Shown here in pieces: positions 1,137 to 43,942 of a stretch of DNA of 64,000 nt. Positions within the stretch are counted from its first letter, which is position 1; every line of letters starts with the position of its first letter. The translations under genes and the position numbers were made by a program. A model generated the notes under the pieces. It searched no databases and was not told the origin of the DNA. It worked only from the letters and a program-made list of their open reading frames with translations. This DNA is from Lytechinus pictus (Eukaryota), in assembly GCF_037042905.1 (NCBI RefSeq), contig NC_087245.1, positions 36,086,001 through 36,150,000 on the forward strand. Direction: 5' to 3'.

Positions 1137-2844
1137 GTAATATTGTGTTAATGCTCCTATTATCTAGTTGCCGTACCTATTCAGTGGCACAATATGCAAT
1201 GCGTCTCACAAAAAAGAGGAAACCGGGATTCCCACTTATTTTTAAAAAAAAAGCTCAAGAATTAATAGTCTTTCATTTACATCATCTTAACCCTTTGAAG
1301 CCAATAGGTCGCAATACCGGCCTACCAGTGAACGCGCATATACCCGATAGGCCGCAATACCGACCGGCCTGAAGCCATGTGACTTAAAAAACATGGGTTC
1401 TAAATGTCAGGTGATCTTTTTAAAATAACGTCATCTTTCTAGTACGTGGAGAGATATTTAGTTGATAATTTCAGTCAGGATAGGTATTGATTTCGGAAGG
1501 TTTTAGCTCTTTCAAAACACTCCTCAAATCTTACCTCATTAAGCAGTCCTCTTAATTCCATATCCTGTTCTCTCTCACTTTTTTTCTTTTTTTGTTCTTT
1601 CCAATGCGCTTAGAAACTGTTGTATTAAGCGCTATACAAATGTTAATTATTATTATTATTTTAGCATAAAAAATGGCCAAAATATGCCACTCTACTGCAG
1701 TGGCTCCTGTGGCATGTGCGGTAATACACTGTGTAATGCATGGCGAGGCACATGCTGACTATGGGGAAGCTATTGATAAATCTGACATTAGTCAGAACAG
1801 TGATTTTGAGCCCAAAACAGACACTAAAAATTAAGTTGATATTTCTGTCTGTAGACTAGGTCTGCGAGAAGCTAAACAACTTCAGCCGGCTTGGTCTGGG
1901 TACTAGCGGGGGGGGGGGGGGGGGTCGGGTAAAGATGTCGTTGGGGCTCGAATCATGGGAGTTTGTGAATGTGGCTGATACGTGCAAATAATTCAGGGTA
2001 TTGGGAATGGCCACCCCAAATAATTTAGGGTTCAAAGGGTTAAAATTTGGCTTTTCCTCTTCATTTTGATACCAAATATGACATGGATAGTTTACCCATA
2101 GATAAGCAAGAAGAGAGTTTTCAAATTCAATGTCAAAACCAAGTAGCCACTTTTCTGGAGGGCACGTTTCTTTATATGACAGCATAAAGTGAAAGGAGAA
2201 ATCTGAAAAGGGCACAATAAATCTCCAAGGTAGGAAAGGAGAGGGGCATGCTTACCCATTCAATGTCCGTATATTTTTTTTTCTATTTACGCCCTGAAAT
2301 TTCAATTAGCTTTTTGTTTTATATCAGTCACTTTATTGATGGTTTCATATTTGCTAATTTTACATGTTCAATATTGGCAGATTTAAATTTTGTATATTTT
2401 TTGGAAAAGGGTGCTTTTATGCTTCTTCTGCAAAGGCAGAATTTTGAAATACTCAACTTAGATGCATTTACACCAAGAACTTTAAAATGCTTCGAACTAT
2501 TTTCACTATTTTCAAGGCGAAAGCTGGCATATTTTTTCAAGATTTGATTAGAATTATAGAATGTTCACTTCCATTTAATAAAAAAGAAAAATTCAGGGTA
2601 TCCTAGTTACAGCACAAACAGGCAAACAGTCATTGCATAACTTCTAAAAAGCTTTCTGATCCCCCCACCAAAAATATTTCATGCAGCATCATATCAGTGA
2701 TTTTCATTTTGACAAGCATCAATAGCTCTTGACAGTGATATCACCAAGGTTATACAACCAGTAGGACACCTAATACAACACTCTTCTGAACGTTTAAACG
2801 AAAGTATTAATTCTCTTTGAATTGCTGACTCTCCTCTTTTTTAG

Positions 2845-3560
2845 ACTTGAACAGTTTCCTAAGGAGTTGTGTGAAGTAAGGACGCTTCAATTCTTGAATC
2901 TGAGTCAGAACCGCATCAGTTCCGTACCAGCCTCTGTGCGCCGTCTCCAGAATCTTGAGAAGTTAATCCTCGACCACAACACCTTCCCAGCGATTACTCC
3001 GGAAATGTGCACACTCAAGAACTTGGTATCCCTCAGCATGTCGGACAACCAGATAAAAGAGATCTGTGAGGAGGTCAGTATGTACCAACGGTTAGAGGCC
3101 CTAGACCTTTCCAACAACAAGTTCCCGGTATTTCCTCCGGAGATCTGGACCATCCCACGGCTCAGGATCCTACACTTCATCCAGGAAAAGGGTGTCAAGG
3201 CTTCATTCCTGCAGCCTGCTATCTACAACTGCTCCGAACTCGAGGAGATCTACGTCCAGAACAACTGCCTGACCATGATCCCAAACACCATCAGAGCCCT
3301 ATCCAAGCTCAGGGTATTCTGTGCTTCCGACAACTGCCTCATGGACATCCCGGATGTCTTTTGTGAGCTGAAGAACCTGGAGGTCCTGGAGCTTGAAAGG
3401 AATGAGATCAAGTCTCTGCCAATAAACTTTGAGATGTTGACCAAGCTACGGGTGTTAGGACTTGATGCCAATCCATTGGCACACCCTCCAAGTGAGGTTT
3501 GTGAAGGAGGAGCCATGGACCCAATCACCAGCTTTATCAGGAGAGCAGATGAAAGAGAGG
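2845..3560 (+). CDS. LRRD1: LRRD1-like, large LRR exon (about 9 LRRs) ending RRADERE
   Basis: ORF 2822-3586. ttttag acceptor and gtgagt donor at 3561. Repeated LxxLxLxxNxIxxLP motifs. The RADERE junction resembles vertebrate LRRD1 as recalled. Phase 2 to phase 1. Confidence 0.9.
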
Positions 3561-4549
3561 GTGAGTTTCACAGAGGAGTGTTCTAGTACTATGACATAGG
3601 GATAGATATTGATTTCAGTTCAGTTTCAGTTTGGTTTTCCGCATCTCACAAATCAATATAGCATAACATTCGACAAGAAGGAACAAAACATAAATAATAC
3701 TACTGAGGCTAATCGGACGCATTAATGAATCAACAATGCTACGCAAGGCTTTGAGATCTGACATGAGAGTTGGTAAATCACATAACAAATTATGCGTATT
3801 CTTACATATGCAATCAACAAACTTTAAAGGTCTCCATCGTCTCGTTTTATGAGGGAGGCGTAACAAAAGTAAATCATAAATAACTTCATTCTCACTATGG
3901 AGTCAGTTACCAGCAAATCTCATACTATTACCATGGTGGAGATAGGTGGAAGATATCATGGGTATATTAATTCTCTTTGAATTGTTGACTCTCATTTCTA
4001 AACTTGAGCAGTTTCCTATGGAGTTTTGTGAAGTTAGGACATTTCAATTCTTGGATGTTAACAATCATAACTCAAGTCTAGAAATGAGGGAAGTCGGCAA
4101 TTCAAAAAGAATTATTCCTCATACTCATGAGGATCTTCCAACTATCCAATGTCAGGTTTTGATAATGATAAGATAGTACACTTCAGTAATTCAATAGAAA
4201 TAAGACAATGGCAATGATATTTAAAATTGCAGATTAGAGACAAATATAGGATGATAAGAATATGAAGGGTAAACTATTTCAAAAGCACTGGTTGTAATAA
4301 ATAGTTTCCCTACATGTATGAGTAACTATGAATAAGTATCGTTAATTTATTAAGTAATTTTTTTTTAAAGACTTTTGACTTTGCAATGTTTTATTCTTTC
4401 TCTGGAGACTTTGCTTCACAAGATGGTAACATGAGTAGCAGCAAATTTAAGAGTGTGAATAATCAATCAATTTAAATGTTTATTTTGATTGTTATTAGAA
4501 TTTTTTATCGTTTGATTTAATAATTCCCAATCTCCTATTCTTTCTCCAG

Positions 4550-4845
4550 AGGCCTTGCTTCACAAAATGTTCACGTGCGTAGCGGCAAACCTGAGAGAGC
4601 GGGAGGCGCATGACCTGATGCGCGTCTTTCACTTCCCGAAGGATGTCATGACCCTGATAGAGAAACAGCATCGAGGATCCCCTCCGGATGCCCTGACCAT
4701 GTCCGTCGTCAGACGGTGGCGGGAGGAGAAGGGACGTGCTGCGTCTCCCGATGAGCTGATACGCTATGTCGGGTTGATAGACATGCCAGTGGTGACAAAC
4801 AAACTGAAGACAATGCGTGTGGACTCCCAGGTTCATAGGCTATGA
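4550..4845 (+). CDS. LRRD1: LRRD1-like, terminal exon encoding a death domain
   Basis: tctccag acceptor. Translates EALLHKMFTCVAANL...VVRRWREEKGRAASPDELIRYVGLIDMPVVTNKL...RL*, the death-fold pattern (W..xxG..A...L...L). The LRR + C-terminal death domain architecture matches LRRD1. Confidence 0.85.
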
Positions 4846-6872: not shown

Positions 6873-9800
6873 GTTTTTTAAAGAGGCTTCATTTTTGCTT
6901 GCTTATCCCTGCCATGCTCGTGTAAAGTCATGAACCTGTATTTGAAGTCTAGCCTAATTTAAGTCATTGTCTAAGTACGTGCTAAATTATGGGAAGCCAA
7001 ATACATCATTACTTGTTTTACAGTGTATGTTTCTTATATCTGCATGTATTGTCCTCATGCTGGACAAAGACTTCTAATTATCATTCACAAAAAGTATATT
7101 GAACCTCTACTGTTAAACAAAAAATATGCCACACTTGGCTATCCATAGTTAAATCACAACTATGGATAGCCAAGCATTTAATGTTAAATCCTAGTTCAGG
7201 ACAAGGATTCAGCGAGGCTATATATACTCTTCATGATATATAATATGAGTAAATTGATTATATACCTCATTCTCATCAACACCGACAGTCAATCCAATGT
7301 GAACATTCCACTTTTTCGATTCCATCATGGTTCTGCATTTTTGTGACGATTCCGTCTGTTGTTTTACATCACCCCATTATATTTGTTTCATTTAGATATC
7401 ATGCTGCATTGTTCCAGGGTCAGAGGTTAAGAATATATATAATATCTGTTATATGTTTTATTATTTTGTGGGCCTATTTAGAAACTAAACCTCTGGAACT
7501 ATACACATGCTGCAAAGGTTAATTGTAGATATAATAGTTCTTCTTTCTTTCAAACCTCTGGATCTATACACATGCTGCAAAGGTTAATTGTAGATATAAT
7601 AGTTCTCCTTTCTTTCAAAGTGTTTCAAGTATGTGATTTCAAGCACGTCCATCATAAAAAAAGTGCCTTTGTAACAATGCATTTAGTGTGATAATTTATA
7701 TGAACAATGTAGGCTGGAGAATTAATGTGTATGTTTTCTTTCCTCCTCAATTAAGAGTGATAAATTCATGAATTGATTTTATATAGTTGTGAAGTTTCAC
7801 TTTCAAGGTTAGAATTGTAGAAAACAATAACTAGTGGGTAATATTCTTTCACGGGGGTGGCTTTAATTTGATTAAGCTGCTTATGTAGTTTCACATGACT
7901 ACGTGTAAATGGGATGAAAAATAAGTTGCCAAACGATTAATAAAATGAAATAGATCGTAATAACAATGATAACTGCATAAATATTATACAAATAATGCAC
8001 GTAAGCGCGTGCATGCAGGGCCAAATAATGAACGATGGGCGAGAAGAGCCAATGGATATACCGCACGACCGAGTGCGGTATATCCATATGGCGAGTCGAG
8101 CACAGAGTTCATTATTTAGGTCCTCTTTGCACAAGAATGCGTGCATTGTTTGTTTTATACAACCCCTCTCCTCCCCCATGTTACTGAGTTGCCCCGATTG
8201 CTATATTTGATCTAAATTCTAGATAATTCCAGACCTCGTACTATCCTGCACTCTGACGTCAGAGTACAGGATAGTGCATTTTGGATGCAATAGTGCGATT
8301 TGCTGAATATCATCCGATTTGGACCAATCAGATTACAGAATGTTCTTGGGAGTTGTATAAATGATAATGATAGTAATGTGTGCCTTGAGTGTCATGTTAT
8401 TTTTTTTGGGGGGGGGGTTCAAATGAATAAACTTGAAACTTAAACTTTTTAAATTATCGGCAAATGTGTGTGCTTTATATATATTAAATTATTATTGTTA
8501 TGTGTGAAGGCAACTTTCAGAGAAGATATTAAATTGATTTTTTCACTGGCATCTCCTTAGAATGAGAGAGGTGCAAAGATAATTTAGATTAATAGGGCTT
8601 ATATTTTGGTATTAATTTGATGGATGATTTTAGAAATGACCCAGAGTTCATTTTGGCTTTCCATAATCCTTTTATGAAGAAAGTCATGCATAACCATAGA
8701 AACATCAATATTGAATTTAAGACAATTTTTCGAATTGGCAACATTATTTTTTTATCATTGTAGCATTTACATTTAAAGAGATTAATAAAAAAATGCCATT
8801 TGAAGTTGCCCATTTGCATGGAAAATGTTGATTTTAACATTTCCTTGACATTGCTAATTTTTAATTAGTTAATGCAATGAAGTACAAATGAAAACTGAGC
8901 TCCATAAGTAAGTTTGTCGATTTGATCTTCTTATGTATGATATTCATGAAACCATCAGTGTAAACATTGTCTTTTGGACATACTCCTGGTATTTCAACCA
9001 AACCCTGTAAAAGTGACACTTGACAAATTGAGTATGTTTTTAACAATTGTTGTGCTATAAAGCATTTTTTATTGTGAAGAAATTGGTGTTGTGTAGCTTG
9101 ATTTTTTTTGACAAAGGTTTCCTTAACCTTAGAAATAGTGCAGTATAATAGATTATTACATCTGCTTATGTTTGTAAGAAATGAATGGATCATGTTGATG
9201 TAAAAAGTCTTACCAGTGCATATTTGTGTAAATAACTGTCTATATCAATTTATATATTTGTGTACTTTTGATATGTGTCTGTAAGAAGTAGGCTTGTTTA
9301 TTGCATTGATGCTTTCATTTTAACCAGTTTGTCTGCCTATAGCTGCCAATTTTGTGGATTTTATCCTAATCCTTATGATTATTTGCAAAATAGCGCGCTA
9401 TTTATGAATTACCCCGCTACTTCGCAGGCGCAGACGCGCTCGGGATTATTTATTTTGCAATAATCCCAAGTTGACTTGGGATTGCAATCTCAAGATTAAT
9501 CCTGCAAACTAGCTTGATAATTGCGTCTCCATTACAAATAATCTAGAGATTGTTCAGATCGGGATAATTTGCCGGATCAAAAATAGCGCGCTAATTTGAA
9601 AACTCGGGCTGGTGCAGACGGCCCTATTGTTCCTCTCTGTTAAAGGCGATTTTTATAGTGAATTATAAATATATGTACAATTCCGTCCATTATCATATGA
9701 AATGCTATAATAAAATCATCCTGTGTTTAAATAAATGTTTTACATGTTGCAATGCATGGCCGATTTTTTTTTTTGCTAGGATGTGATTATGTTTTAGGTT

Positions 9801-10545
9801 TGTGGAAAGTGGTTGAAAAATTTTCAGAGATGAATATATTTACTTTGTTAACCAAAGGAGGAAGTTTCAGATGATCTGTGTAAGTTTGTATGGTGGAGTT
9901 TATAACGTGGAGAAGGTTTACGGTTCACCATTAAGAAGGGAAGGAAATACAGGCAGAAAAATTGAAATGGAGAGACGAGAAACGATGAAAAGAGGAAATT
10001 AGAAGTATTCTTTTCTTGAAAGTGAGTGAAGTCCTGAAAAGGACTGCAAACCAGATGAGATGAACTGAATATGGCTTGAGTAGCGATGGTTTGAGTAGTA
10101 TAGCATGATGAAGTGAAGAGAGGTTACTCGAATGGTAATGGCGTAATATCGGACCATTCCATAAAAGAGAATTCAAAGTATCAATGTGGGTTTATACCAT
10201 TACCTCCGGACCGGAGGAAGTCTCATTTCTTGACTTGAATTTATGAAGTAAAGAATAATTATGTTTTTTTTTATGAATGTAATCTGCCGCCTACTCCCTT
10301 CAACACAACTTTACAAAGAATGTCTGGAGAGTTAACAAAATTGCTACTTTATATCGCATTCCAATAACTTTGCATGTTCTAGTGCTTAATATTTTAGTGT
10401 GACGGAATTTAAAAAATGCAATAGAAACGGACAAAACTATATTTTTATATTTTTTGTAGATGTACTTAGTAGGTTTTTTATTTATTTAAAGGTTGTGCAT
10501 CGAATTTATTGTCCAAATAGAATGTCATTTTTTTCCACGAATGGG

Positions 10546-11647
10546 TCATTTCAAATCGGTGTATTCTCTGATTTCTGGAGATTCCTGACTCTGTGTACCA
10601 CCGGCATCCGTGAAGGTTTGGTAACCCTCATCATCAACAACGACATGCTGGAAGAGCTTAGTTTCATCCTGGCTGCTGGGCTTTAGGTATCCGTCTGCTT
10701 TCCCTGTTTCAGAGACACGTGTTATCTCAAGTTCATCACCTAGAATGCAAGGTGGCGGTTTGACCAACGGATTGACGATCATCTCGTACCGCTCTGACGC
10801 AGGTGTTACATCACCAAGTCCTAATTGGGTTCGGGATGTCCCGGAATTACCTCTGCGACGAGGAACCGAAGACGCCGGACACTGACGACTCGGGTTCTGA
10901 GGTAGATGGAAAAGGCTGTGAGACCTTGATCGAGCCGATTGATTGTCGAGCAAGGAGTAATCGGGCGCACCAAAGACATCATCTGATAGCGTTGTGCCCC
11001 GTCCTAGATTATCAAGGTCATCAAGGCTATCAAGGTGACACCATTCTTTATTCGGAGGATGGTCAATGTATCGGAGAGGATCACATGACTTTGATCGGAC
11101 CGACTGAATGGACGAGTCCGGTTGTTGATCAGACGAACCGCGGGGTTTCCGATCACGTGACCGTCTGGAATTTGCCTCTGACAATTCGGATATGCCAGCT
11201 CCATGAACTGAACGATGCAACCTACTCTCCTTCCTCCCACCTTTACCTGTACTGCCATCTACATCCGATGGCAATGGCATTGGACCCCGTTTCTCCATCA
11301 CACAGGATGTTGTCCTGTACAAAGGGTTCGGGATCATAGGGAATGGGTCGGACATCTTTCCAGAAATCTCAGTCGATCTATTGTCCTCCGATCTCTTGCC
11401 ATCTACTGTGGAAATCCCTGAGGTGTCGCCATTTGTCAAGCCCCCCTCTCGGTTATCGATGACATTGTACATATGGACGCCACTCTTCAAGGACTTGTCT
11501 TCTGCAGAAGGCTGACATTGATCACATTCTGACATTGTTCGATGCGATCTGTAGTGACTAGGTGTCCTAGTCAGAGCATGGGTCTCCAATCCGTGAAGAT
11601 GAACGTTGATGGGCGGCGGTGACCAAGACACATTGTAATCTCTGTTC
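10546..11647 (-). CDS. Gene A (orphan single-pass membrane protein), exon 4: long disordered Tyr-motif-rich cytoplasmic tail
   Basis: 375-aa ORF 10546-11673. Acceptor ctttag ends at 11648. Phase 2 joins the TM exon (..VRSR/NRDY..). Ends ..EYTDLK*. Confidence 0.85.
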
Positions 11648-12753
11648 CTAAAGCATAGGTAGAAAATGACCAAAAAAAAACGTAAATGATTCTTACTAAT
11701 CGGCTGCCACTATGATACCAATGTTATTTTTTCACCGCTCCATGAACGCTCCAGCGGTACTGGCGCTGTGACCAGGCCTTAAAGGGAATCGTCGATGGCT
11801 TATATGTAGATAGGCCTGTAGCAACGGTTGCGGACTTTACTAGAGTATGGCCATTTTTGCCAGAAACATTTTATCGTGCGGTCAAACTGTTTCTACCGTA
11901 AAAAGGATATTGCTTCAAGAGAGGGGTTAAAAGGGGTTCAAGATTACCTCAAACTGAGGGGAAAAGTAGGTTAACATTGCACATCTTTCGCACTAGGATT
12001 AGTAGCTCATTTAAAGGTGCCTGTTTTCATTTTCAGAATAGGGTTGCAAAGTTTTATAGGTTCTCCCTGTTCTAAGAGCTGAAAACTTGCCATCTTAAAG
12101 ATGTTCTGTTTCCTGAAAATGCAAAGTACCTGTAAGTGCAAATTTCTCTAAATCTGCTCCCAGTGCATGTGAAATTAGTTTCCACCGTTCATAACAATCG
12201 AAGTTATAATGATAGATAATTATTTTCACTAACATCATAACGGTTAGTTTAACAAACCGAGCTAAAAATTGGAATATGAAAAGATAAAGTAAATTCAGAT
12301 AAACAAAACACTGCATATTTCATCAAAATCAAACGAGGAATAACGCGCTGATGATGTCATATCACCACTTATTCTTTTGTATTTCGTTATATGAAATCAT
12401 AGTTTATTCTAAAAATGTGTTCTTCAAGGATGAAAACAATTGGATCGACTTCTGGTTTATTACGCGTGAATAATAATTGCTGCAACTTATTTTGTTACAG
12501 CGAAGTCATATTGTTATATACGCACATGAAAATATGAAACACTTTTAATTTCATGTAATGATAATACAAGAAAAAGAAAAGTGGGGATATGACGTCATCA
12601 GCCCAGCGAATGAATATTCATAAAATATTGCTAAAGTTCAAAATGCAATAAAGTATCTATTGTCAGATTTTGACGAAAATTTCAGCGTTTTGCTCGGTGA
12701 AGCTTACGCTATTAAAATCATTTTTCTGCCGAGAATACCACTTAAAACCATAC

Positions 12754-12874
12754 CTTGAGCGTACATACTGGAATATCCATATGCAGATTGTAATCATGAT
12801 GGTTATGCCGAATACTGATGACATCACAGATGCTATCGCCAGTACCTCGTAATATGGCATCGATCTTGTAGTCG
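12754..12874 (-). CDS. Gene A exon 3: transmembrane helix
   Basis: ctctttag acceptor and gtatgg donor. Translates STTRSMPYYEVLAIASVMSSVFGITIMITICIWIFQYVRSR: a hydrophobic span followed by a basic stop-transfer. Phase 1 to phase 2. Confidence 0.8.
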
Positions 12875-13323
12875 CTAAAGAGTAAAGACATACAATTCTC
12901 ATTTTATTCACGTATCATCCATCTTGTAAAGAGTCGTGAATATGATGAACTGAGAGAGAAATGAACATTCTGTGAAGAGGAAAGCCATGCCATTCAAAAT
13001 ATTGGATAGTTTTCTTAATATGCTATAGTAACAAATCGGGTTCCGATATTCATTTGGCATCACGGCTGTGGGTTAAATATGAATGGTTTAGTTTCATAAA
13101 TATTTCCCTCAATAATGATTTACTTTCAACCACGGTTTCACTTGAAAAATAAACGCAAATGATTTCAAAAATTTACAAGGAATTTACTCAAAATTGAAAG
13201 TCGCTAAATAAAAAGCAATCATTTTTATACGGTGGTTACATTTTTTAATCGAATACAATCTGAGCAAGGTCAATAGACGGGAAATATTCTCTTTTAAGGA
13301 GTTATTTGACATAATTATTAGAC

Positions 13324-16300
13324 TCCGTGGTTCACGACATGGGAGGCAACGGCAAAAAAAAATGAGTTACTTAGTGTATGCGCGAAGCGCGCTCAATTGC
13401 CAGGTATACTGACCTAATAAAGGCATTTTAAGGACTGTGCCATTAGACGGACATGTATCTCACTGATCAAATAATACGAGTGCGAAGCGCGAGCTGAAAT
13501 TTGTTTTATATTCAGATCTAAAAAGGGACATTATAAGCAAATTTTTGTAATCATGATACGTACCTATCTTGCTAATCAAACAATGGGAGCGCGAAGCGCG
13601 AGCTTACATTTTTTGTATATATTGACCCCAAACGGGCATTTTAAGGAATATTTTTTTAGGAATCCATTGAGAGTATATCATCTCACCAAAGTCTAATGCG
13701 AGTGCCAAGCGCTTGCTGGTTTTGTTAGAATTACATCTAAACATCTGTTTGTATTCATTATCATGATTATTGACTGGGATAAGGATCAAATTGACTGGGA
13801 TAAGGATTTTACTGGCAAAACTTGTGAACAAGCTTGGACCTCATTGTTTCACAATATAAAAGAAGGTGTGGAAAATTATGTACCAGTACGCAAGTGTAAC
13901 ACGGATAAGAGACGAAATATTTATGTATCAAAAGCTATACTTAAGTTGTCTAAGAAGAAGACGCGTTACTGGAAACGATATTCAGATGTGAACAGGACTA
14001 GAGACGAGAGAGAAATCGACTACAGACAGTATAAACGAGTGAGGAACCAATTAAGGAAAGAAACAAGAGCAGCAAGTAACAACTTTGAACTCGACCTAGT
14101 TGAAAACATTGGCCATAATCCCAAAGCTTTTTGGCGTTATGCTAACAGCAAGGTAAAGAGTAAAGGTCGTATTACAAGCCTCATGAAGGGCAATGGACAA
14201 CTTACTGAATCAGATAGTGAAATAGCAAGTGTTCTTAACGATTATTTCTCCGAAGTATTCACTAGAGAGGACATGGACAGTATACCGGATATACAAGTTC
14301 CTTTGCGAAGTGACCTAACCACGCTAAGTGAAGTAAAAGTACAAGAGATAGATGTCAGCAAAAAGTTAAAAAACTTGAATACAAATAGGTCACCAGGACC
14401 AGATGGGTTGCATCCTAAAGTATTAAATGAGCTAGCTGAGTCCATTGCTAAACCATTGACATTAATCTGTAACAAGTCTATGCAGGAAGGTAAACTCCCA
14501 TCGGACTGGAAGCAGGGAACTGTAGTACCAATCCATAAGAAAGGGAGTAGAACCCAAGCCTCAAATTATAGGCCTGTTAGCCTTACGTCCGTTGCAGGAA
14601 AGTTGATGGAGAAAATTCTTCGAGATGTTATAGTTACACACTTGCTAAGAAATGACCTACTCACACAGATTCAGCATGGATTTACCCCAGGAAGGACGTG
14701 TGCCACTCAACTTCTTTATGTTCTTGAGGAATGGTCAAGGTTATTAGATGAAGGTGAAACAATCGATGTCCTATACCTTGATTTTCGGAAGGCATTCGAT
14801 AGCGTTCCCCATCAAAGGCTCTTACTCAAGCTAAAGGCACATGGTATAGAAGGTAAACTCCTGAACTGGATTAGAGCATTTTTGATCGGAAGAGTACAAA
14901 GAGTCTTTGTTAATGGAGAATCATCCGACTGGTCACCTGTTACAAGCGGAATTCCGCAAGGAAGTGTCCTCGGACCAGTCCTCTTCTTGATCTACATAAA
15001 TGACCTCCCATCTGACGTAATAAATAGCAGAGTGGTATTATTTGCTGATGACACGAAACTCTATAGTACTGGAAATACACCTTCACAGACGAGTGGTCTT
15101 CAAGACGACCTGAATAACCTTATTGAGTGGTCTGAGAGATGGCAATTACCCTTCAATGATGACAAATGTAAAGTGTTGCACATCGGCAGGAGAAACCTTG
15201 GAAAAAGCTACCATATGCATGGGAAAGACTTGCAAGTAATGGAAGCCGAAAAGGATCTCGGTGTAATAGTGGACTGTCAGCTGAAATTTCACCAGACATG
15301 TGTCATCAGCAGTTAGCAAAGGATACCAACTCCTCGCCATAATGAAAAGGACATTCACTCAACTCACAAGGACAACTCTGCCTCTGCTCTTCAAAACCCT
15401 AATAAGACCCCACCTTGAATATGGGAGTATCCTCTGGCATAGCAGATTCAAAGAAGATGCAAGGAGGATCGAAAGGGTCCAAAGAAGGGCAACCAAGCTG
15501 GTCAGAGAGCTGAAGAACGTCCCATATCAAGACAGACTCAAAGAATTGAACTTGTACTCCCTGCTGTACAGGAGGAGAAGAGGAGACATGATCTTCGTGC
15601 ACCAGCTAATGCATGGACTTATCAATCTCCCTCTAGATCACTTCTTCACAAAATCAGTAGGCAGATCAACAAGGGGACACTGCCTGAAGCTTCAGAAAGA
15701 GCACTGTAGACTGGACATTCGCAGCAAGTCTTTTAGCAGAAGAGTGATAGATGATTGGAATAGCCTCCCGGAAAGTATAGTCGTCTTGCCAACAACAGAA
15801 TCATTTAAAAGGCATGTAGATAAACATTGGTGGGATCATCGCTTTGATCTACCATGACTCCCACTCCTCAGCATGCGTACAGTAATAAACTCACCAGACT
15901 AAAACCATAGATGGAGTGACCGGGAATTACAGGCCACCGCCTTCTTCCTGTACTAGATGATGATGATGATGATGATTATCATATGCATCTCACGAATCAA
16001 ATGTTGCGAGCGCGAAGCGCAAGCTGAAAATTTAGGAAATTCAGACCTGAAAAGGGGCATTCTATGGCTTGTTTGTAGGAATTCACTAAGACCATACGTA
16101 TTTCAATATCCAAATGAAGCGAAGCGCGAGCTAAACAATTTTTGATATTCAGATCAGAAAAAGGGACATTTTAAGGACTGATTTTAGGAATTCATGAAGA
16201 GCAGACATATCTCACCAATCCACTAATGCGAACGTAAGCACGGACTGGAAATGTTTTATATTCAGACCTTAAAAGGGGGCAATTGCCTTAAGTAGTCATT

Positions 16301-16769
16301 AAAAAGAAGCAAATGTCACTACATAAAAACAACAACACGAAGTGTGCGGAAATATATTTGGTATATGTTGACTTGAAAACGAGATGTTTTAGTACAACAG
16401 GGTTATAATTATATCTCATTAAACACACCATGCGAGCACCAGGAACGATGAACGCATACTAGTAGGCACAGAGCCAATAATGTTTCATAAAGTTATGAAA
16501 AAAATATTTCTTATGTAATATAACATAATATATATAATATAATATTACATAGTATAATATAATATTATAAAGTATAATATAATATTATATAGTATGATAT
16601 AATATTATATAGTACAATACAATATTATATAATATAATATGATATAATATGATATAATATAATATATTAATATATTATAATGTACAATAATTTCTTCTTT
16701 CCCACTACGTTTCTCTTCCTTTCTCCCTCCTTTTCTCCCCCCCCCCCCCCCCCCGTAGTCACACCACTG
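13324..16769. mobile_element. Non-autonomous hAT-like element (same family as 55684-57222), split by the LINE
   Basis: Both halves are collinear with the 55684-57222 copy and join at ..tcatgattat|catatgcatc... Contains GCGAGCGCGAAGCGCGAGC motifs. The right end reads ..caccactg. Confidence 0.8.
13771..15971 (+). mobile_element. 5'-truncated CR1-clade non-LTR retrotransposon (ORF2 reverse transcriptase), antisense in gene A intron 2
   Basis: ORFs 13763-15316 and 15300-15857 carry YRPVSLTS, QHGF, DFRKAFDSV, GIPQGSVLGP, FADD, RPHLEY, ERVQRRATK and WNSLP. Short 3' UTR with an (ATG)n tail. ATGATTAT repeated at 13763-13770 and 15972-15979. Confidence 0.95.
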
Positions 16770-18661
16770 ATTCGGCTTATAATGAAAGGGGAATCGGTCC
16801 ATCGGAATAAATTTGGAGTGATTTTTTTATAGTTTGTTTAACACTTTTTTTGTCTGACACTGTCTCATTTCGGAACACTTCCTTCAAAACATCAGAAACG
16901 GTACTGATTCAAGAACCGTCGTAGGTTCTGCAAGGAACCATTTGGGATATTAAATAATTATTAAAAGTATAGTATAAACATGACAAAGTGCTTGTGCAGG
17001 GGCGACATAATGTTTTTCTTTTTATTGATTTAACAATTGTAGGGGTTATAGAATTATACGTCCAATACATCTAATTTTTATGGGTTTTTTTCTTCTATCT
17101 TCCCTTTATTATCATTTATCCCCTTTTTTCTAATAATTCAAATATCCTCCTCCCCTTGCGCCGTCCGTGTCTACTTGGTAAAACAATTTTGAAGATTCTA
17201 TATTCAGGAGGTCATACTTCCTTTTTCTGAGAGCACTGTTGAATGATCACTCCGGTTTTTTTTGTGGATATGTTATCTCCTTCAGCAATAAATTATCCAA
17301 TTTGTGCTGTACTCTACCCGGATGTAGTAAATGAATAAATATTCATTTCTTGAAGCTATTATTTACATTTGTTATTTATTAGATTAAACTATGGACTATT
17401 TCCGGGGTTTTTTTAATAGCCCTTGGATTGGCTGCACATTGAATGTACGAAATGGGAATTGAATCGGTAAAGAACTTCTTCATATCAAGTCCACAAAAAT
17501 TAAGATAATTGGACACTCATGATAATGAAATAAAAGAACAGAAAAACTTAGTGCGCGGTGCCATCGAATCATGATTTGTACATGTTTTAACTGATGTGTG
17601 AAATAAAAGAAAAATGGTGAATATGACTTTTTATTCTACACCTAGATTTAGGAAAATTTTCTGCGTTACGCTTAAAATATGATTTTTCGTTAAAACTGAC
17701 CTGATGTTGAATTGAATTAAATTTTCTATCGGTAGAACAGTTCAGTTAATCATAACCTCTTACACACTTTACTTTCAACATAATACGCATATGGTCGGCA
17801 ACTGACGAAATGATACGGAAATGCGTGCTATAGAGACTCCATGAACCCCCTCCCCTCATCTTTTTTCATAGCATAATGACCAATTTAGGGGAAGAGGAGG
17901 AATGACCGCCAGTGCAAATAACCGATGAACAAAATGTATAACGTAATAGCAATACTAAACATGTTAAACGTGACCTACTTGTAGTTGTATTTGACGAGGT
18001 GGATGAATATGTTGTGTCTGTGGAGAAAACGAACAGCACACAAAATAAACAGCATTTCAGTATACTAAAATTCTAGGTATGTCCTAATATTAATTGATTA
18101 GGAAATGCATGGTGTAGACTCCATGACCCCCCCCCCCCCCCTCCTCATCTTTTATGTATGGCCTAATGATCAATAGAGGAAGAGGAGGAATGACCACCAG
18201 TGAACCTGGCCCAGTTTGGGAGGGAGGGGGTATACCACGTCAAACGCACTTAATTATGGTTTATGTATTTTCAGATTTTGATTTATGTTGTGTTAATTCA
18301 TCATATTCATTTTCTGTTATTTTTTCAATTTCCCATGTTTATGTTCTGCTATTAATTTAACCTGTTTAAGTTCTTTTATTCCTGGAGAGCATCGTTGTAG
18401 AGCAGATTTTTTAACTGAACCGAATTACCCTCCACTGTTTTTATCGATAATGTTAAATAAAACAAGTTTCAAGTATCAAAATTTATTGATCAATATCCAC
18501 ACACATTGGATCATATTTTACAAATAAACAAACAGACACTTAATGTAGACAATTACAGTGAAACACAGTTACAAATGAAATATATAAATACGAAATACAA
18601 AGATATGTATATATATATTTATATAGAAATATAGTGGGCCCCTTAAGAAACATTAAAAATA

Positions 18662-20300
18662 CTTAGGTCAAATAAAACATAAATGAATAAATAAATAGAT
18701 AAATAAAGAAAGAAATACAGAAAGAAAGAAAATAGCCATACTAAAACATGACCTACTTGTACTTGTTGACGGGGCCATGGATATATCCGTTATAGCTGTG
18801 AAAAAAAAAACGAATAGCACACAAAATAAACAGCATTTCAGTATACTAAAATTCTAGATTTGTCCTTATATCAAGTATTGATAAGGAAATGCATGGTGTA
18901 GACCATACTCGGCAGAGCAAAAAACATGAAAAAAAGGGGAAAGAAAGAAAAAGGAAAAAGGAAAAAGAAGGGAAAAGAAAGGAGAAAAAGAAGAAGAAAA
19001 TTAAGAGGAGGGAGACGAGTGAATGAAAATAAGGTCAGGGGAAGACTTGGAAAATAATATTTCAAAAGTATTTCATATCACTGTATTGAATTTTCGCTCA
19101 CGCTTCGCGCTCTCATTGCACGTTCGATGAGATACAAATCTTCCTCAATAGACTGATATGTAGCTTAAAACATCAAGTTTTGAAGCCAATTTACAAAACA
19201 TATTTCAGCTCGGACATCGAGCTTTCATTATTTTGTTTGATTTACAAATTGATATTTTTTAAGTGTTCTGTAAAATGCCAGTTTTATGGTGTGAAATTCA
19301 ACATTTTCATGCTTGCACTGTGCGCTCTCATTATTTGATTTGCCAAGTAGACCTACCTATTGTCTTTGTGTATTCCATAAGATTCTCAAAATATCCCTTT
19401 CAGGTGTGATTGTCAAAAACAAATGCCTATCAGCTTAGGTCATATAAAACATAAATAAATAAATAAATAGATAAATAAATAAATAGATAAATAAAGAAAT
19501 AAAGAAAGAAAGAAAGAAAATAGCCATATTAAAACATGATCAACTTGTACTTGAAGTTGACGGGGCCATGGATATATCCGTTGTCGCTGTGAAAAAAAAA
19601 CGAACAGCACACAAAATAAACAGCATTTCAGTATACTAAAATTCTAGATTTGTCCTTATATCAAGTATTGATAAGGAAATGCATGGTGTAGACCATACTC
19701 GGCGGATCCAGGGGGCCCGAGTCGCCCGCCCCCCCCCCCCTATTGGCAGAGCAAAAAACATGAAAAAAAAGGGGAAAGAAAGAAAAAGGAAAAAGAAGGG
19801 AAAAGAAAGGAGAAAAAAGAAGAAGAAAATTAAGAGGAGGGAGACGAGTGAATAAAAATAAGGTCAGGGGAAGACTTGGAAAATAATTTTCAAAAAGTAT
19901 TTCATATCACTATATTGAATTTCCGCTCGCTTCACACTCGCATTGCCTGCTCGATGAGATACAAATCTTCCTCAATAGACTAATATGTAGCCCCCCCCCC
20001 CCCCGCTTCCGCGGCCCCTGATATACAAAACATGTTTCAGATCGGACATCGAGCTTTTATTATTTTGTTTGATTTACAAATTTGATTTACAAATTGATTT
20101 TTGTGTTCTGTAAAATGTCCGTTTTATGGTGTGAATATCAACATTTTCATGCTTGCGCTGTGCGCTCGCATTGTTTGATTTCCCAAGTAGGCCTACCTAT
20201 TGTATTTGTGTATTCCATAAGATTCTCAAAATGTCCCTTTTTAGGTGTGATTATCAAAAACAAAGGCCTATCAGCTAGCGCTGCGCGCTCGCATTTTGAT
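18662..20300 (+). repeat. ~770-bp direct tandem duplication (18662-19437 / 19434-~20275) in gene A intron 2
   Basis: Both units begin cttaggtca.ataaaacataaat and are collinear throughout. Confidence 0.85.
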
Positions 20301-20924
20301 TGGTGAGTTATGCATACCTCTATATTAATTCTATAACAAACTACTTCAAATCCCCCTTTCATAACAGTGTGCATTCTTTCAAAAATTTCGGCTCGCGATT
20401 TGCGCTCTCATTAATTGTTAAAAAATATATCAACCCATGAATCCTATTCATGAATACAAGAGTGCTTAAAATATTAAGTTTTCAGGCCTTAACGTTAACA
20501 AACTTCATGTTTTTGCTTATGTTTTCAGATTTTGATTTATGTTGTGTAATTTCATCATATTCATTTTCAGTTATCTTTTCATTTTACCTTGTTTATGTTC
20601 TGGTGGATGAATTCGCTGTGGAGAAAACAGATAGCTCACAAAACAAACAGCATTTCAGTATTAAAATTAATTGCATGTCATTTATTTCACGCCTCCGTTT
20701 GTAACTCTACGATACAATATTTTTTCCCCTTTCTTTCTTTTCCGCTCTCCCCTCGCCCCTACTCTTTCTCTCTCCCCTACCCCCCCCCCCCCTCTCTCCC
20801 CCCCCCCCCTCTTTCTCTCCCTCTCTCCCCCTCTCTCTATGCTTATATAAAAGTCCACTCATCAAATTTTCATTAAAAATGCAAATCAAAAACATTACCA
20901 GAAAATAAGTACTACAGTACTTAC

Positions 20925-20966
20925 ATGGAAGATTGCTTGTGATATCCGTAGTTGAGTTTGTTGTAG
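20925..20966 (-). CDS. Gene A exon 2: 42-bp Ser/Thr-rich ectodomain exon
   Basis: cttctag acceptor and gtaagt donor. Translates TTTNSTTDITSNLP, with an N-S-T sequon. Phase 1 to phase 1. Confidence 0.65.
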
Positions 20967-21329
20967 CTAGAAGTGAAGCCGGTAAATAGAAAAACGAGAG
21001 CCTTGGATTTGAATTTATTTAATTTTTATTAGCGGTAGGTTGGGGGTACATGTGGTAATCTAGATTAACTGTAGTTCCGTTTCACTTTCTTGTCTTTTCG
21101 TTGGATTAAAAAATATGTGTATGGTTGTTACGGAAAAATATTGAGGAAAGAAAAAAAAAAGGTCACTGCTAACAGTCATGCCAATACCTCTCCCCCGTAA
21201 AAACCACTGGAAGTGTTTTCATTAACATTTGTCATTTAACACGCCATCTTGAAATCAATTGGCTGTCATACACAGGTGGGTAGCTGTGCAACACCCGACA
21301 AGTCATTGCATGAAACGCCCCCCCAAAAA

Positions 21330-21670
21330 AAAATAATAATAATGAATTACTAAATATAAAAAAATAATAACAATAATGATTACGATGATAAATAAAAATA
21401 GTAAATAAATAAATAAATGAATATTTAAATAAATAAATTAGTTAATAAATGAATAAATAAATAAATAAATAAATAAATGAATATGTAAATAAATATGAAA
21501 AAATCAAAGAAAATAAAATAATAATAACAATGATATAGTAATAATAATACTGCTATTAATAATAATTATAATGATAATAATGATGATGATAACAATAAAA
21601 ATAATATCAATAATGATAATTTCAATAATAATAATTACAACAATAATGATTATAATAATAATAATTGAAA
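21330..21670. repeat. (AAT)n/(AAAT)n low-complexity tract
   Basis: Visible directly. Similar tracts at 16515-16680 (ATAAT), 30650-30770 (TTGG/TGAC/TTGC) and 41320-41430 (ATT). Confidence 0.9.
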
Positions 21671-22721
21671 AAATGGAAAAAATATAAAATTTATAATTTC
21701 ATTATCGGAAAAAAAAGGGAAAAACCACTGAATGGAATGGAACATCTTGGGCCGTTGGTGTCCAGAAGGAGAGTAGACTAGAGCAGGTAAATGGAAATAC
21801 ATAATAAGGCATTTCTACATTATCTTGAAATGTGACATTATGAAACCTGTTGGTAACAGTTTCACTGCATTGATATATTATTGTTTTCAATATTATCTTT
21901 ATCAGTAACACTACTGAGGAAGATCATCATTTTATTATTCATATTTACGGGACTAATAAATAGTACACAAAATTAAAAAAAAATTGGCTATTATTATTAT
22001 TATCATTATTATTATTATTACATCACCGTTTATGCTTTTGAAAGCGATTCAATTTTTGAAGAATATATAAAAGAAATGATATAAGGGTTTCTTACAAAAT
22101 TGTCAAGTGAAACAACAATGATTCTTCCCTGAACATGTGGAATTAGCATTGTTTAATACTTTATGGTTCATTCAAGTTGGTCCTTATTGTTAAATCTGAG
22201 AAAAGTGAAATATTGTATAATTCAAACAATAAAAAACAAAAGAAAAGGTGAGTGATGGACATCATCGACTGACTCATTTGCATGTCACTGAGTTGTGCAC
22301 ATCACGGTTTTGTGAAAAATAAGCGAAACTTTAAAATGTCATAACTTTCTTATTTTACATCCGATTTTGATGAAATTTTTAGCAATATACTGGTTTGATT
22401 TTTCTCTATTTATTCAAATCAACATTTTCCTGGGGTGGACTTGACCTTTAAATGGTTCGACCGAACACTTAAAATATTAGTTTCAGCTTAATGCATGGTT
22501 GGATATCATCTTGGAAAAGATTGTCACCTCTCCAGCCTTTCACATGTTGATTTAACATTTCATGTTTAAAGTGTTTAATTTACATGACTATTCAGCAAAT
22601 TATATTGGTTAATTTCAAGAGCAACGTATAGTTATAATATGGATTAAAATGCATCGGTTGAACTTCTGATTTGATTTTGTCGCCAAGGTGGAATCCAGTG
22701 TCATGCGGATACTGTACTTAC

Positions 22722-22845
22722 TTTGAGCATTTGCTAGGCAGATTTGAGAAACTCCAATTTGTAGGATGATTCCAAAACAAATTCTTGTAGTCCGCCACCT
22801 GACACACGAGCCTGTCTTGTTAGAGATTTTAGAACTATCCATCAT
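22722..22845 (-). CDS. Gene A exon 1: start codon and putative signal peptide
   Basis: Translates MMDSSKISNKTGSCVRWRTTRICFGIILQIGVSQICLANAQ, then a perfect gtaagt donor in phase 1. A-N-A resembles a cleavage motif. The four exons total 1389 nt, giving 462 aa plus stop. Confidence 0.6.
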
Positions 22846-24924
22846 TAAACTTTTGTATATGTACAACGACATCAAACAGCTTAAGATTATTCTGTCTTCC
22901 TCGTTTATGCTGAAAGTACACACTACGATAAGAAATCACGTACTGCTGAAAATGAAAGTAAAGCGATTATATTCCCATCCTTAAAAATTGTCACGCGAAG
23001 ATTTGAATTATGACTTGATAATCAAAACTGTAGAGCACCGTTTAAAATCGGCTTATAGAAGTCCGTTGATACTTGAATAGTATATTTTTTTTACCGAGGC
23101 GAAAAAAGGGGCGACCGGAATCTTATCGTGTTGCTTTCTTTGTGTAACTTATCTTGGTGTTGTTATCGGGTTTTTTTTTCTTTTTTTTTAGGAATCGGAC
23201 AGATAAAGGGTATATGAAAATACATAAGCAATATAGCATTCACTTCTAGCCTGAAAGCCCCCCCCCCCCCCGCCCCCTCATCCCCCAAATTTGAAAAATG
23301 TCATATGACGCCCCTATGATGCTGTCAAAATGTAACCACTAAGAAGGAAATAAAATTAAAACTTAAGTTCAAAGGCCAATTAAGCGATTCTGAAACTAGA
23401 TATGGCCAAACAAATTATTGTCTCTGAATTGTATTCAAGGATAATTATTTCAAAGGTATGGCCTGTCCAGGCTTATAGGCATTCGACTTGGTAAAATTCC
23501 AATCTACGCAACATGCCCAATCACATCGATTATGATGTAACATAACATTAACAAGAAATGTTTGAAATACCTTGCATTATACATGTATGTCATAACTCCA
23601 TTCCGGCAAGTAGCGTGTTTATAATCAGATGATTATAAAATACCCCATGAATTATAATCTAATCGAAAATCTAAAACTGATACCAATTTACTGTTTTCAG
23701 GGCGGATTCAGGATTTGCCGGGGGCATTATGACAAGCGACAAATAAAATATTTGATCAATATTTGAAGAAAAAAAAGCAAATTGTACACGTTATTTACGC
23801 ATACACCCGGAATTATATGATGTCATTTTTTATGCCTAGTTTGTGTTTTTTCGTATTAATTGCTTGCAAACCATCCACCCCTCACTCCCCCTCTCACCTG
23901 TCTCTCCCCCTCCATCTTTCTCTCTCGCTTTCTACCACACCCCTTTATCTCGTTTACTGTCAATCATCTCTTCGTGCTTCATCCTTTTCCCTTTCACTTT
24001 CATCACCATTATTTAACCATTTCTTTAGTTTTATTCATAAACATGACACGCTATAAACCCGAATGAAGAAACAGACAAATAGAGCTCTTTCTAGCTGTAC
24101 ATTTATTTATTCTGAAAAAAAAGTATTATCATTCTGTGAAAAGTAAATTTTATATAATCCACATCAATCTATTATTGCGATTTTATTTACAAAAAGGTAC
24201 ATTGATATTGATCAAAAATTGATCGCTTTACTATAACAATAATGACACCACTTTGTTTTTCTGATATAATTAATGATGCAACTCATCATGGGTAATCTAG
24301 CACCTCGTTAAAATGAGTTTTGAAAGTCCGTGCGCCAATACAGTCGGAGTGGAGAGAGAGAAAGGGTGGGAGGGAAAATGGAAAGGAAGAGAGAGGGGGT
24401 CAGAGAGAGGGGTGGAAGTAGTTGTATGTTTTGGAAGAGAGGAGAAAGACAGAGAGAGAAGGAGAGAGAAGAATATAGAGAGTGAAAACATTATTAGGAT
24501 GTAAAATATAGCTTCAATATTCAGCAATGCACGAATCTAGAGGTCTACCCGCTATTCATAATGTCGCCTTTCATGTGAGTGTGTGTGTAGGGGGGGGGGG
24601 CAAAAATCGCTATTTAATAATCGAAGAAGATGGCTAGTCAAAAGCATCTCTAATCGGGGTCTTCATTCATAATATAGAAAATCGGGGAATATTCATAAGG
24701 GTCCAGGGTTAATAACCGTCAAATTGGATGCTATTCATAATCAAAATAAGAGTTTATAGCTATATACTCCTATTAAAACAACACTCATGAGATACAATCT
24801 TAGTATTCCTAGCAATTAAGTCTCATACCTCTTATTGGAATACCCCACAGGGAGTGGAGAAAGTGCATACATTGCGTACATCGGATCCTGATCCGATTAC
24901 CGGACTGATGATATTAAGTAGAAT

Positions 24925-42559: not shown

Positions 42560-43942
42560 TAAAAGGGACCATTATGTAATTATGATGATAGCACGTTAAG
42601 CTATGATGACACCGAAGTAAAATAGGAAGATCAATATTCACTTTGTTAAAGTTTGATATTTGGCTCTCGAAGGAGCTACTAAGCCATTTTTAACTACGTG
42701 AAAGTCCCACAATGTACCTTGCTGTACCCTTTACTGTTTTGATGTGTTCTCAATAACATTGATATCAAATAACTATAACGGTGTTGGTATTAATTCAATG
42801 GTTTACGTAATGACCTTGTTTTCCATGACAGGCATATTTCCATGGGCGCCCCCCCCCCCTGCGTACGGCTATAATCTTAAAACAAAGAAGAAAAATGAAT
42901 TATCTACCCCCACTCACATGACTCATGAAACTTAAAGCACGTAGGATTATTTTTACAATTTTTTTCGTTCATTATGCACCTGCAGATGGAAGCAGAACGG
43001 CACTAAATATCGGGCGATCATCGGGCACGAAAAAAAAATATTTTTCAGAACAACTTATCTGATATGAAAGGACAGAAGGCAAAGGCGCACTCGTTAACAC
43101 ATAAAACAGGTCCTTCTCATGTGAAAGGGGCACAATAAACGTTCGTGGGGGCACTTTTCTTAGGTAAAATGGGGCACTGATTCGAAAAAGGGCAGTTACA
43201 AGAAAGCAAGGGAGCACTTGCTCAGATCGACATGAAATGGGTCCTTCACAGGTAAAAGTGGCACAGAACACGTTCGTGAGGAGGGGAGGGGGAATTTTTT
43301 GGTAAAATTTGGCACTGATACGAGATATGGCACTTGCTAACACCTTAAACGGGTCCTCTTCCAATGAGAGGAGCACAGTACACGTTCGTGAGGGGGCATT
43401 TTTATTGCGTGAAAAGGGCACCTTTTCAGTGCTTCAAAAAGCGGGGGGCACTGTGCCTACTGCCCCCCCCCCCCCTCTGATCGCTGCCCCTGCGATATTT
43501 CAATATTCGTTATGAAAACCACCGACAGCTACTCGTGTTAAAACGGATACACAAACAGTTTTGATGATTTATCTTGATTTGGTTTACCCCATACTTCTTT
43601 GATTAGAGGTGTTAAAAGATTAACCTTCGACTTATAAATTCAAAGACGACATAATCGAAAACTACAGCGGGAAAACGACCTGTTGCGCATGTTCATCGAA
43701 CATCTCCATTATTCAGATGGGATTTTGCCACTTATTGAATGTTTGGATCTTGCGTTTCAACACACACAGACACTCGTATACAAACCAGAAAAAATAATTG
43801 ACATTTTTATTTAAAAAATATTTATCAAAAAAATTTTTGAAAAGAAAATTCAAGATTGAACACAATCATGGGAGCTAGGGCTGGTGAATATGCCGAAACA
43901 AATAAACATTTAAAATTTTGACTATTTTTGGTTGTTCGATAG

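What the first reader, a model, noticed from the sequence alone, without database searches (positions are those of the whole stretch)
10546..22845. Orphan candidate transmembrane adaptor: ~25-aa ectodomain and ~365-aa tail packed with tyrosine motifs
Seen: four exons join in frame to 462 aa (signal peptide, short S/T stalk, one TM helix, long low-complexity tail with no domain I recognise). The tail has IPNPLY, YNVI, DYSLL, YEMI, DGYLKP, DDEGYQTF and a terminal EYTDL. Established: IPNPLY fits the hydrophobic-x-NPxY PTB-binding consensus, and YxxP is a Crk/Abl/Nck-type SH2 ligand. DDEGYQTF resembles the hemITAM DEDGYxxL of Dectin-1/CLEC-2. This layout defines vertebrate transmembrane adaptor proteins (LAT, PAG, SIT, TRIM). 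Inference: an invertebrate deuterostome signalling scaffold, analogous rather than necessarily homologous. No canonical ITIM or ITAM is present.
Basis: partly seen in the sequence, partly recalled or inferred. Interest (0 to 1): 0.72.

Follow-up and report, generated by a model that had tools for sequence, protein, structure and literature searches.

The report
Sea-urchin mucin-stalk membrane scaffold gene
This single-copy, unstudied sea-urchin gene encodes a predicted one-pass membrane protein with a short, likely sugar-coated outer stalk and a long, predicted-unstructured inner tail whose tyrosine and serine motifs are kept in a second urchin genus, so it likely serves as a docking scaffold for signalling proteins, a known kind of design.

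Summary
The gene is real, on the minus strand, and all seven named motifs are present. The six-exon chain equals RefSeq Lytechinus pictus LOC135154677 (497 aa, 'uncharacterized'). The ectodomain is therefore a ~50-aa mucin-like stalk (29 of 50 Ser/Thr, three N-glycan sequons), not ~25 aa. The tail is not tyrosine-rich (10 of 369). Against the Strongylocentrotus orthologue (59% identity) 8 of 10 tyrosines, the NPxY and all five YxxΦ motifs are kept; the YxxP is lost. No homologue outside two urchin genera, no paralogue, no domain and no folded tail were found. It most likely works like a vertebrate transmembrane adaptor (0.5), but it fails the 'few-residue ectodomain' criterion and has no CxxC or YxN. 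Use of the motifs as sorting signals is a serious rival. An unrelated gene of the same layout lies 4.4 Mb away, so the layout is not unique. No function was tested.

The parts
22722..22872 (-). Coding exon 1: long basic N-region, moderately hydrophobic segment ending in an A-x-A site (predicted signal peptide).
   Evidence: no signal-peptide predictor was available
20925..20966 (-). Stalk micro-exon A, 42 nt, phase 1-1, Ser/Thr-rich, one N-glycan sequon
19545..19586 (-). Duplicate of micro-exon B, 42 nt, open frame and good acceptor but weak donor (GTTGAT); not in the RefSeq model; likely skipped or optional
   Evidence: its use in RNA was not tested
18757..18795 (-).
   Evidence: depth in run X8 corresponds to 39.1 letters (inferred)
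17979..18017 (-).
   Evidence: depth in run X1 corresponds to 40.9 letters (inferred)
12754..12874 (-). Transmembrane exon, 121 nt; one Cys inside the helix (kept in both named orthologues), no CxxC, basic residues just inside
10546..11647 (-). Last exon: the whole disordered cytoplasmic tail and the stop codon; poly(A)-signal-like hexamers follow at 10510 and 10486
11305..11334 (-). IPNPLY directly followed by RTTS: NPxY plus a basophilic serine site, invariant in 6 of 6 aligned rows
10555..11469 (-). Five YxxΦ motifs (Y191, Y361, Y418, Y473, Y493 of P0003), all still YxxΦ in P0004 and P0002
10915..11568 (-). Six R-[S/T]-x-S sites (residues 158, 167, 242, 315, 370, 372), kept 6 of 6 in P0004; none has the +2 Pro of a mode-1 14-3-3 site
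10678..10695 (-). DGYLKP (YxxP): not conserved in any of the 5 other aligned rows

Best explanation
This is a single-copy, six-exon sea-urchin gene (RefSeq LOC135154677) for a 497-aa predicted type I membrane protein with a ~50-aa, likely glycosylated Ser/Thr stalk, one membrane helix and a ~369-aa predicted-disordered tail, and it likely works as a non-catalytic membrane scaffold. Shown: exon structure, composition, motif positions and their conservation in a second genus. Inferred: the stalk is a spacer and surface-delivery signal, not a ligand-binding domain. Src/Syk-type kinases switched on by other receptors would phosphorylate some of the conserved tyrosines, which would then recruit PTB proteins (NPxY) and SH2 proteins (YxxΦ). 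Basophilic Ser kinases would phosphorylate the R-[S/T]-x-S sites and so tune or oppose that recruitment, possibly through 14-3-3. Some of the same tyrosine motifs would act as endocytic signals when unphosphorylated.
For: Exon chain identical to RefSeq P0003. Orthologue models in L. variegatus (91%) and S. purpuratus (58-59%) join the same helix exon to the tail exon. Two run contigs stop aligning at the last exon's acceptor and continue with 278 and 289 other letters, while unique intron bins are almost empty. No catalytic or folded domain: Pfam none above cut-off, PDB 0 hits at E 10, pLDDT under 50 across the tail. 8 of 10 Tyr, NPxY and 5 of 5 YxxΦ kept; identity 66 of 99 near tyrosines against 133 of 260 elsewhere, and 12 of 368 circular shifts do as well. 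R-[S/T]-x-S kept 6 of 6, against R 14 of 26 and S 24 of 43 elsewhere. Language-model neighbours of the helix-plus-tail part include SCIMP, LIME1/PAG clusters and poxvirus A36R (a lead only). Sea-star eggs express Src-family kinases, Syk, Csk, Grb2, PLCγ and Cbl (PMC11593052, section 4.3).
Against: Tyrosine content is ordinary (2.7%), with no YxN, YxxM, ITAM, ITIM or CxxC, and only 2 of 10 Tyr have two or more acidic residues just upstream. 8 of 10 kept is not far above the 59% background. The YxxP is lost. YxxΦ and NPxY are also sorting signals (PMC4510537 passages, for YxxΦ; NPxY recalled). The R-[S/T]-x-S excess does not survive a pattern-search control (42 of 400 shuffles give a pattern as strong as the tail's best) and none has the +2 Pro. 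Conservation rests on two lineages only. The Atlas hits are under the tool's own bar (157 shared features; 3 of 10 share a family). No phosphorylation, binding or tissue data.
Confidence: 0.5

Rival explanations
1. A trafficking sialomucin in the manner of CD164/endolyn: the NPxY and YxxΦ motifs are used unphosphorylated by clathrin adaptors to cycle the protein between the surface and endosomes, and signalling is secondary.
For: Mucin-like stalk; the only Pfam match is a weak one to MGC-24/CD164 over stalk and helix (E 0.013, 16.3 bits against a cut-off of 28.5). The last YxxΦ sits at the C-terminus. YxxΦ drives AP2 endocytosis of CD164 (PMC4510537 passages). Few acidic residues precede most tyrosines. 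The best named Atlas hit for the whole protein was a viral envelope glycoprotein cluster, UL132 (0.87, lead only).
Against: CD164 has a short tail with one motif and a Cys-rich domain; here the tail is 369 aa with many conserved blocks, including serine sites that sorting would not need. The Pfam match is under the cut-off and explained by Ser/Thr composition.
Confidence: 0.25
2. A small adhesion or cortex-linking mucin (CD43-, EVI2B- or syndecan-like in design) whose main outputs are Ser-phosphorylation and FERM/14-3-3 links to the cytoskeleton, with the glycans acting as ligand.
For: Stalk built of duplicating micro-exons. Six conserved basophilic serine sites. NPLY followed by a Ser/Thr run recalls integrin beta tails (recalled). 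EVI2B, opalin, TMEM119, TMEM154 and syndecan clusters appear among weak Atlas hits (0.81-0.86).
Against: The stalk is only about 50 aa. No PDZ-type C-terminus. No sequence homology to any of these. All these Atlas scores are under 0.9.
Confidence: 0.13
3. The stalk, helix and tail exons are an alternative 3' end of the upstream SRCR-WSC-Sushi receptor gene (38536-25955), or take further folded ectodomain exons, so that the protein is a conventional receptor.
For: Same strand, about 3 kb between the genes, and the upstream Sushi and stalk exons end in phase 1 like this gene's stalk exons. The first two exons could not be checked against reads.
Against: RefSeq gives the gene its own first exon. 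The upstream gene has its own helix and tail exons. No protein of 642-2000 aa matched among 2893 candidates (weak by the tool's own warning). The intron scan gave 9 candidate exon readings, none with a recognisable domain (limited to 24-200 nt, in-phase exons).
Confidence: 0.05
4. A dedicated immune activating adaptor of coelomocytes that recruits Syk through a hemITAM-like DDEGYxxF/I site.
For: DDEGY in 5 of 6 aligned rows. An acidic triplet plus Gly before the Tyr marks activating hemITAMs (PMC12669754 passages). A scavenger-type receptor gene lies next door.
Against: +3 is Phe in Lytechinus; P0004 reads DEKGY; no lectin domain or dimer-forming ectodomain Cys; no expression data by tissue; neighbourhood says little in animals.
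Confidence: 0.07

Closest known systems
RefSeq LOC135154677 (L. pictus, XP_063957626.1); orthologues LOC121417836 (L. variegatus) and LOC100892329 (S. purpuratus), all 'uncharacterized protein'
   Same: P0003 is letter for letter the six-exon product of this window.
   Different: No function or name is attached; the two orthologue models lack the signal segment and stalk.
Vertebrate transmembrane adaptor proteins (LAT, NTAL, LAX, PAG; also LIME, SCIMP, SIT, TRIM)
   Same: One helix and a long non-catalytic tail with about ten tyrosines (PAG, NTAL and LAX have 10; PMC3342071 passages).
   Different: Ectodomain about 50 aa and likely glycosylated, against 4 aa (LAT) and 16 aa (PAG); predicted signal peptide; no CxxC; no YxN or YxxM; has an NPxY and six basophilic Ser sites; no sequence homology.
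Sialomucins and small mucin-stalk proteins (CD164/endolyn; EVI2B, TMEM154, opalin, CD43 by recall)
   Same: Ser/Thr-rich stalk with N-glycan sequons, one helix, a C-terminal YxxΦ.
   Different: Much shorter stalk, no Cys-rich domain, much longer motif-rich tail; Pfam MGC-24 match is under the cut-off.
Orthopoxvirus A36R (PF05950)
   Same: Best language-model neighbour of the helix-plus-tail part (0.92); recalled as a one-helix protein whose disordered tail docks SH2 adaptors.
   Different: Under the tool's bar for shared family; no alignment-based homology; read as a likeness of design.
Tyr/Ser bidentate motif of the GM-CSF/IL-3 receptor beta chain (Tyr577 / Ser585)
   Same: A PTB-type tyrosine closely followed by a basophilic serine (here NPLY-RTTS). 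Tyr577 recruits Shc and Ser585 signals separately (PMC3601961 passages).
   Different: No +2 Pro after the serine here, and no cytokine-binding ectodomain. The primary paper was seen only as a reference title and could not be read; its consensus is recalled.
Second urchin gene at G000:C1:31.65-31.66 Mb (earlier finding e1-8148767)
   Same: Short Thr-rich stalk, one helix, long tyrosine-bearing tail, same contig.
   Different: No homology (best blastp E 3.0). Its tail exon is more LAT-like: 15 Tyr in 375 aa, 3 YxN, 4 acidic-context Tyr.

Membership tests
Transmembrane adaptor proteins (TRAPs) | Extracellular part of only a few amino acids (PMC3342071) | tested here: not met
   About 50 aa, 29 Ser/Thr, three sequons; LAT 4 aa, PAG 16 aa
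Transmembrane adaptor proteins (TRAPs) | Single transmembrane helix | tested here: met
   Hydropathy peak 2.14 and helix 98-132 with the best pLDDT; the N-terminal hydrophobic segment is read as a signal peptide without a dedicated predictor
Transmembrane adaptor proteins (TRAPs) | Tail without enzymatic or folded domain | tested here: met
Transmembrane adaptor proteins (TRAPs) | Several conserved tyrosine-based motifs | tested here: met
   NPxY and 5 of 5 YxxΦ kept in the second genus
Transmembrane adaptor proteins (TRAPs) | Tyrosines phosphorylated by Src/Syk kinases and bound by SH2 proteins | not testable with these tools
   needs phosphoproteomics and pull-downs
Palmitoylated TRAPs (LAT, NTAL, PAG) | Juxtamembrane CxxC | tested here: not met
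   One Cys inside the helix, none in the first tail residues
LAT/NTAL/LAX type | Grb2-binding YxN motifs | tested here: not met
   0 in 4 of 4 proteins scanned
hemITAM receptors (Dectin-1, CLEC-2) | Acidic triplet, Gly, YxxL | tested here: inconclusive
   DDEGY in 5 of 6 rows; +3 is F (Lytechinus) or I (others); P0004 DEKGY
hemITAM receptors (Dectin-1, CLEC-2) | C-type lectin ectodomain | tested here: not met
   No Pfam domain above cut-off
CD164/endolyn (MGC-24) | Two mucin domains around a Cys-rich domain, short tail | tested here: not met
   No ectodomain Cys, 369-aa tail; Pfam 16.3 bits against 28.5
Mode-1 14-3-3 ligands | RSXpSXP (PMC4068353 passage) | tested here: not met
   R-[S/T]-x-S core six times, +2 Pro in none of 4 proteins scanned

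The most novel reading that the evidence does not exclude
An independently evolved invertebrate counterpart of vertebrate transmembrane adaptors that integrates two kinase classes on one tail: an invariant NPLY-RTTS unit acting as a pTyr/pSer switch, plus a hemITAM-like Syk site. It could be one of the missing membrane docking proteins for the Src/PLCγ or Syk pathways of echinoderm eggs or coelomocytes.
Probability: 0.15. Interest if true: 0.62.

Novelty: new member of a known kind. Interest (0 to 1): 0.34.

Why it matters
Echinoderm eggs use SH2-dependent Src-family and PLCγ signalling, and the full set of molecules is not known (PMC11593052 abstract). Receptor-independent membrane scaffolds are best known from vertebrate immune cells. 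A scaffold of this design in urchins, unrelated in sequence and present at least twice on one contig, would show that the design arises repeatedly, and it gives a short list of conserved sites to mutate. As it stands the gene is an annotated, lineage-restricted protein whose function rests on short motifs, so the importance is moderate.

Tried and rejected
Homologue searches: the tail alone (2 hits among 1772 candidates), the full-length profile (the same 2 among 7994 scored) and longer forms (0 of 2893; weak). HMMER over 1.84 billion representatives gave 2 hits: the orthologue cluster and P0009 (E 3e-6), rejected as a cadherin-repeat protein whose five weak repeats add up (Pfam; hhalign probability 1.6%). 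Paralogues in the own genome: self only at E 0.001 or better with the tail, the orthologue, the first third of the tail and the helix exon DNA; two matches at E 4.6 and 9.2 were not pursued. PDB sequence search 0. No fold search was run because the model is unreliable (pTM 0.17); Atlas structure hits all have TM by query of 0.24 or less. No complex prediction was run: no partner is known. Sequencing runs: no RNA holder listed on record; the four runs laid are contigs, so they give no level, strand or tissue. The exon 5-6 joint itself is not among the joints shown (161 rows hidden behind repeats). Exons 1-2 and the duplicate micro-exon were not checked against reads. YxxP as a functional site: rejected, not conserved. 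'Only the tyrosines are conserved': rejected. Literature: the three locus ids and one accession gave 0 papers; 'sea urchin' with 'transmembrane adaptor' gave 2 unrelated listings; 'sea urchin, coelomocytes, ITAM, Syk' gave 1 review listing; the UL132 motif search gave 0. These searches cover main texts of the held library only; supplementary tables of urchin proteomics papers were not seen and could list this gene under an older id. No dN/dS was computed because no orthologue DNA was held. P0005 and P0006 were left out of the alignments as near-duplicates (4 of 6 members of that cluster used).
Full report
Observation. The four exons 22845-22722, 20966-20925, 12874-12754 and 11647-10546 have canonical splice sites and join to a 462-aa frame.

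The gene has six coding exons. The tail exon found an L. variegatus RefSeq protein (91%) and an unnamed protein P0002 (57%). Their clusters hold an L. pictus model, P0003 (LOC135154677, 497 aa), and an S. purpuratus model, P0004 (LOC100892329). Mapping P0003 back showed two extra 39-nt exons inside the 8-kb intron. The chain 22872-22722, 20966-20925, 18795-18757, 18017-17979, 12874-12754, 11647-10546 translates to exactly P0003. The ectodomain after the predicted signal peptide is 50 aa, with 29 Ser/Thr, three N-glycan sequons and no Cys. A third copy of a micro-exon (19586-19545, weak donor) sits in an ~830-nt tandem duplication at 84% identity, so the stalk appears to grow by exon duplication (inference).

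Expression evidence is indirect. No run is on record as RNA. Of four runs laid on 9000-18900, a 1591-nt contig of X1 aligns from 10321 to 11649 and goes on for 278 unaligned letters. Exon 5 and the intron share just two letters at that point, so a spliced product should stop aligning at 11649. A 1671-nt contig of X8 aligns from 11646 down to 10265, with 289 letters left at its 5' side. Unique intron bins are almost empty (17606-17936: 0 in 4 of 4 runs). Depth in the micro-exon bins equals 40.9 letters (X1) and 39.1 letters (X8) of those contigs, which fits 39-nt exons; this is arithmetic, not a listed joint. X5 and X7 hold only short pieces of the last exon. Exons 1-2 were not checked against reads.

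No domain and no distant relatives. Pfam gives only a sub-threshold sialomucin match over stalk and helix; PDB gives none. AlphaFold finds one fairly confident helix and pLDDT under 50 over nearly the whole tail (six rows only), and FoldIndex agrees. Profile searches found only the orthologue clusters; the one other hit is a cadherin-repeat artefact. No longer fused form was found (weak). The gene is single-copy in its genome. Detectable relatives are thus confined to two urchin lineages; a fast-evolving disordered tail could hide older ones.

What is conserved. The tail is 59% identical to P0004, in blocks of 11-14 matches in 15 separated by poorly kept linkers. Tyr makes up 10 of 369 residues, which is not 'packed'. 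Eight of the ten are kept; the first and the YxxP one are not. NPxY and all five YxxΦ motifs survive, with conservative changes at +3. Flanks of tyrosines are better kept than the rest (66 of 99 against 133 of 260; 12 of 368 circular shifts do as well), a modest signal. Against this, a control over many patterns shows that 42 of 400 shuffles yield a pattern as strong as the tail's best one, so the excess alone proves little, and none of the sites has the +2 Pro of mode-1 14-3-3 sites (consensus from PMC4068353, one passage). One of these sites follows the NPxY directly (NPLY-RTTS, invariant in 6 of 6 rows). The six rows stand for only two independent lineages.

Mechanism. The best reading (0.5) is a non-catalytic membrane scaffold. 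A short glycosylated stalk would act as spacer. Kinases activated by other receptors would write pTyr and pSer marks on the tail, and PTB, SH2 and perhaps 14-3-3 proteins would read them. The motif-to-partner assignments are recalled textbook consensus, not tested here. Suitable kinases and adaptors are expressed in sea-star eggs (PMC11593052, abstract and section 4.3). The main rival (0.25) is that NPxY and YxxΦ are sorting signals on a cycling sialomucin, as YxxΦ is for CD164 (PMC4510537 passages); the scarcity of acidic residues before most tyrosines (2 of 10) favours it. Weaker rivals are an adhesion or cortex-linking mucin (0.13), a hemITAM-type immune adaptor (0.07; PMC12669754 passages) and read-through from the upstream SRCR-WSC-Sushi gene (0.05).

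Comparison with known kinds. TRAPs are defined by an ectodomain of a few residues, one helix and a non-catalytic tail with tyrosine motifs, with or without a juxtamembrane CxxC (PMC3342071 passages). This protein meets the helix, tail and motif criteria, fails the few-residue ectodomain, and lacks CxxC and YxN. It may work like a TRAP but is not filed as one. It belongs to the broad known kind of one-pass, mucin-stalk proteins with disordered motif-bearing tails. Language-model neighbours point the same way (A36R 0.92; UL135, SCIMP, opalin, LIME1/PAG 0.84-0.86; UL132, EVI2B, TMEM119, TMEM154), all under the tool's bar for naming a family.

Not unique in its genome. An earlier finding of this scan (e1-8148767) describes a gene of the same layout 4.4 Mb away. 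I fetched that region and saw a Thr-rich stalk with helix and a tyrosine-rich tail exon. It is not homologous (best E 3.0) and is more LAT-like: 15 Tyr in 375 aa and 3 YxN. This lowers the surprise of the present finding.

Verdict. No paper in the held library names the loci (main texts only). New member of a known kind; interest 0.34.

Noticed in passing
window 38536-25955, minus strand: Separate receptor gene just upstream: a Cys-rich exon that looks like somatomedin B (by eye, not scanned), then SRCR, WSC and Sushi domains (Pfam), a short stalk, a helix and a 127-aa Pro-rich tail with 6 Tyr. No homology to this gene's tail.
   Followed up: partly
window 18670-19435 and 19457-20276: About 830-nt tandem duplication (84% identity) that copies a stalk micro-exon; related acceptor-bearing repeats lie near 17966-18119 and 20602-20668.
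   Followed up: partly
window 13697-15854, plus strand: LINE-type retrotransposon with a reverse transcriptase (RVT_1) in two frames, lying antisense in the intron between micro-exon C and the helix exon.
   Followed up: partly
window 43900-47556, plus strand: Alpha-amylase gene whose last exon carries, after the amylase C domain and a Gly/Pro/Ser linker, about 190 further residues with several Cys and Trp and no Pfam match at E 0.01.
   Followed up: no
window 2798-3583 and 4516-4842, plus strand: Leucine-rich-repeat exon followed by a 109-aa frame that looks like a death-fold domain by eye but had no Pfam match at E 0.01.
   Followed up: partly
L003-L004, G000:C1:31649395-31660033: Unrelated gene of the same layout with a Cys-rich juxtamembrane run and a more acidic, tyrosine-rich tail (earlier finding e1-8148767).
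   Followed up: partly
L005, G000:C1:31665000-31668800: Long tandem repeat array with open frames of several hundred codons in all three plus frames; probably a minisatellite.
   Followed up: no
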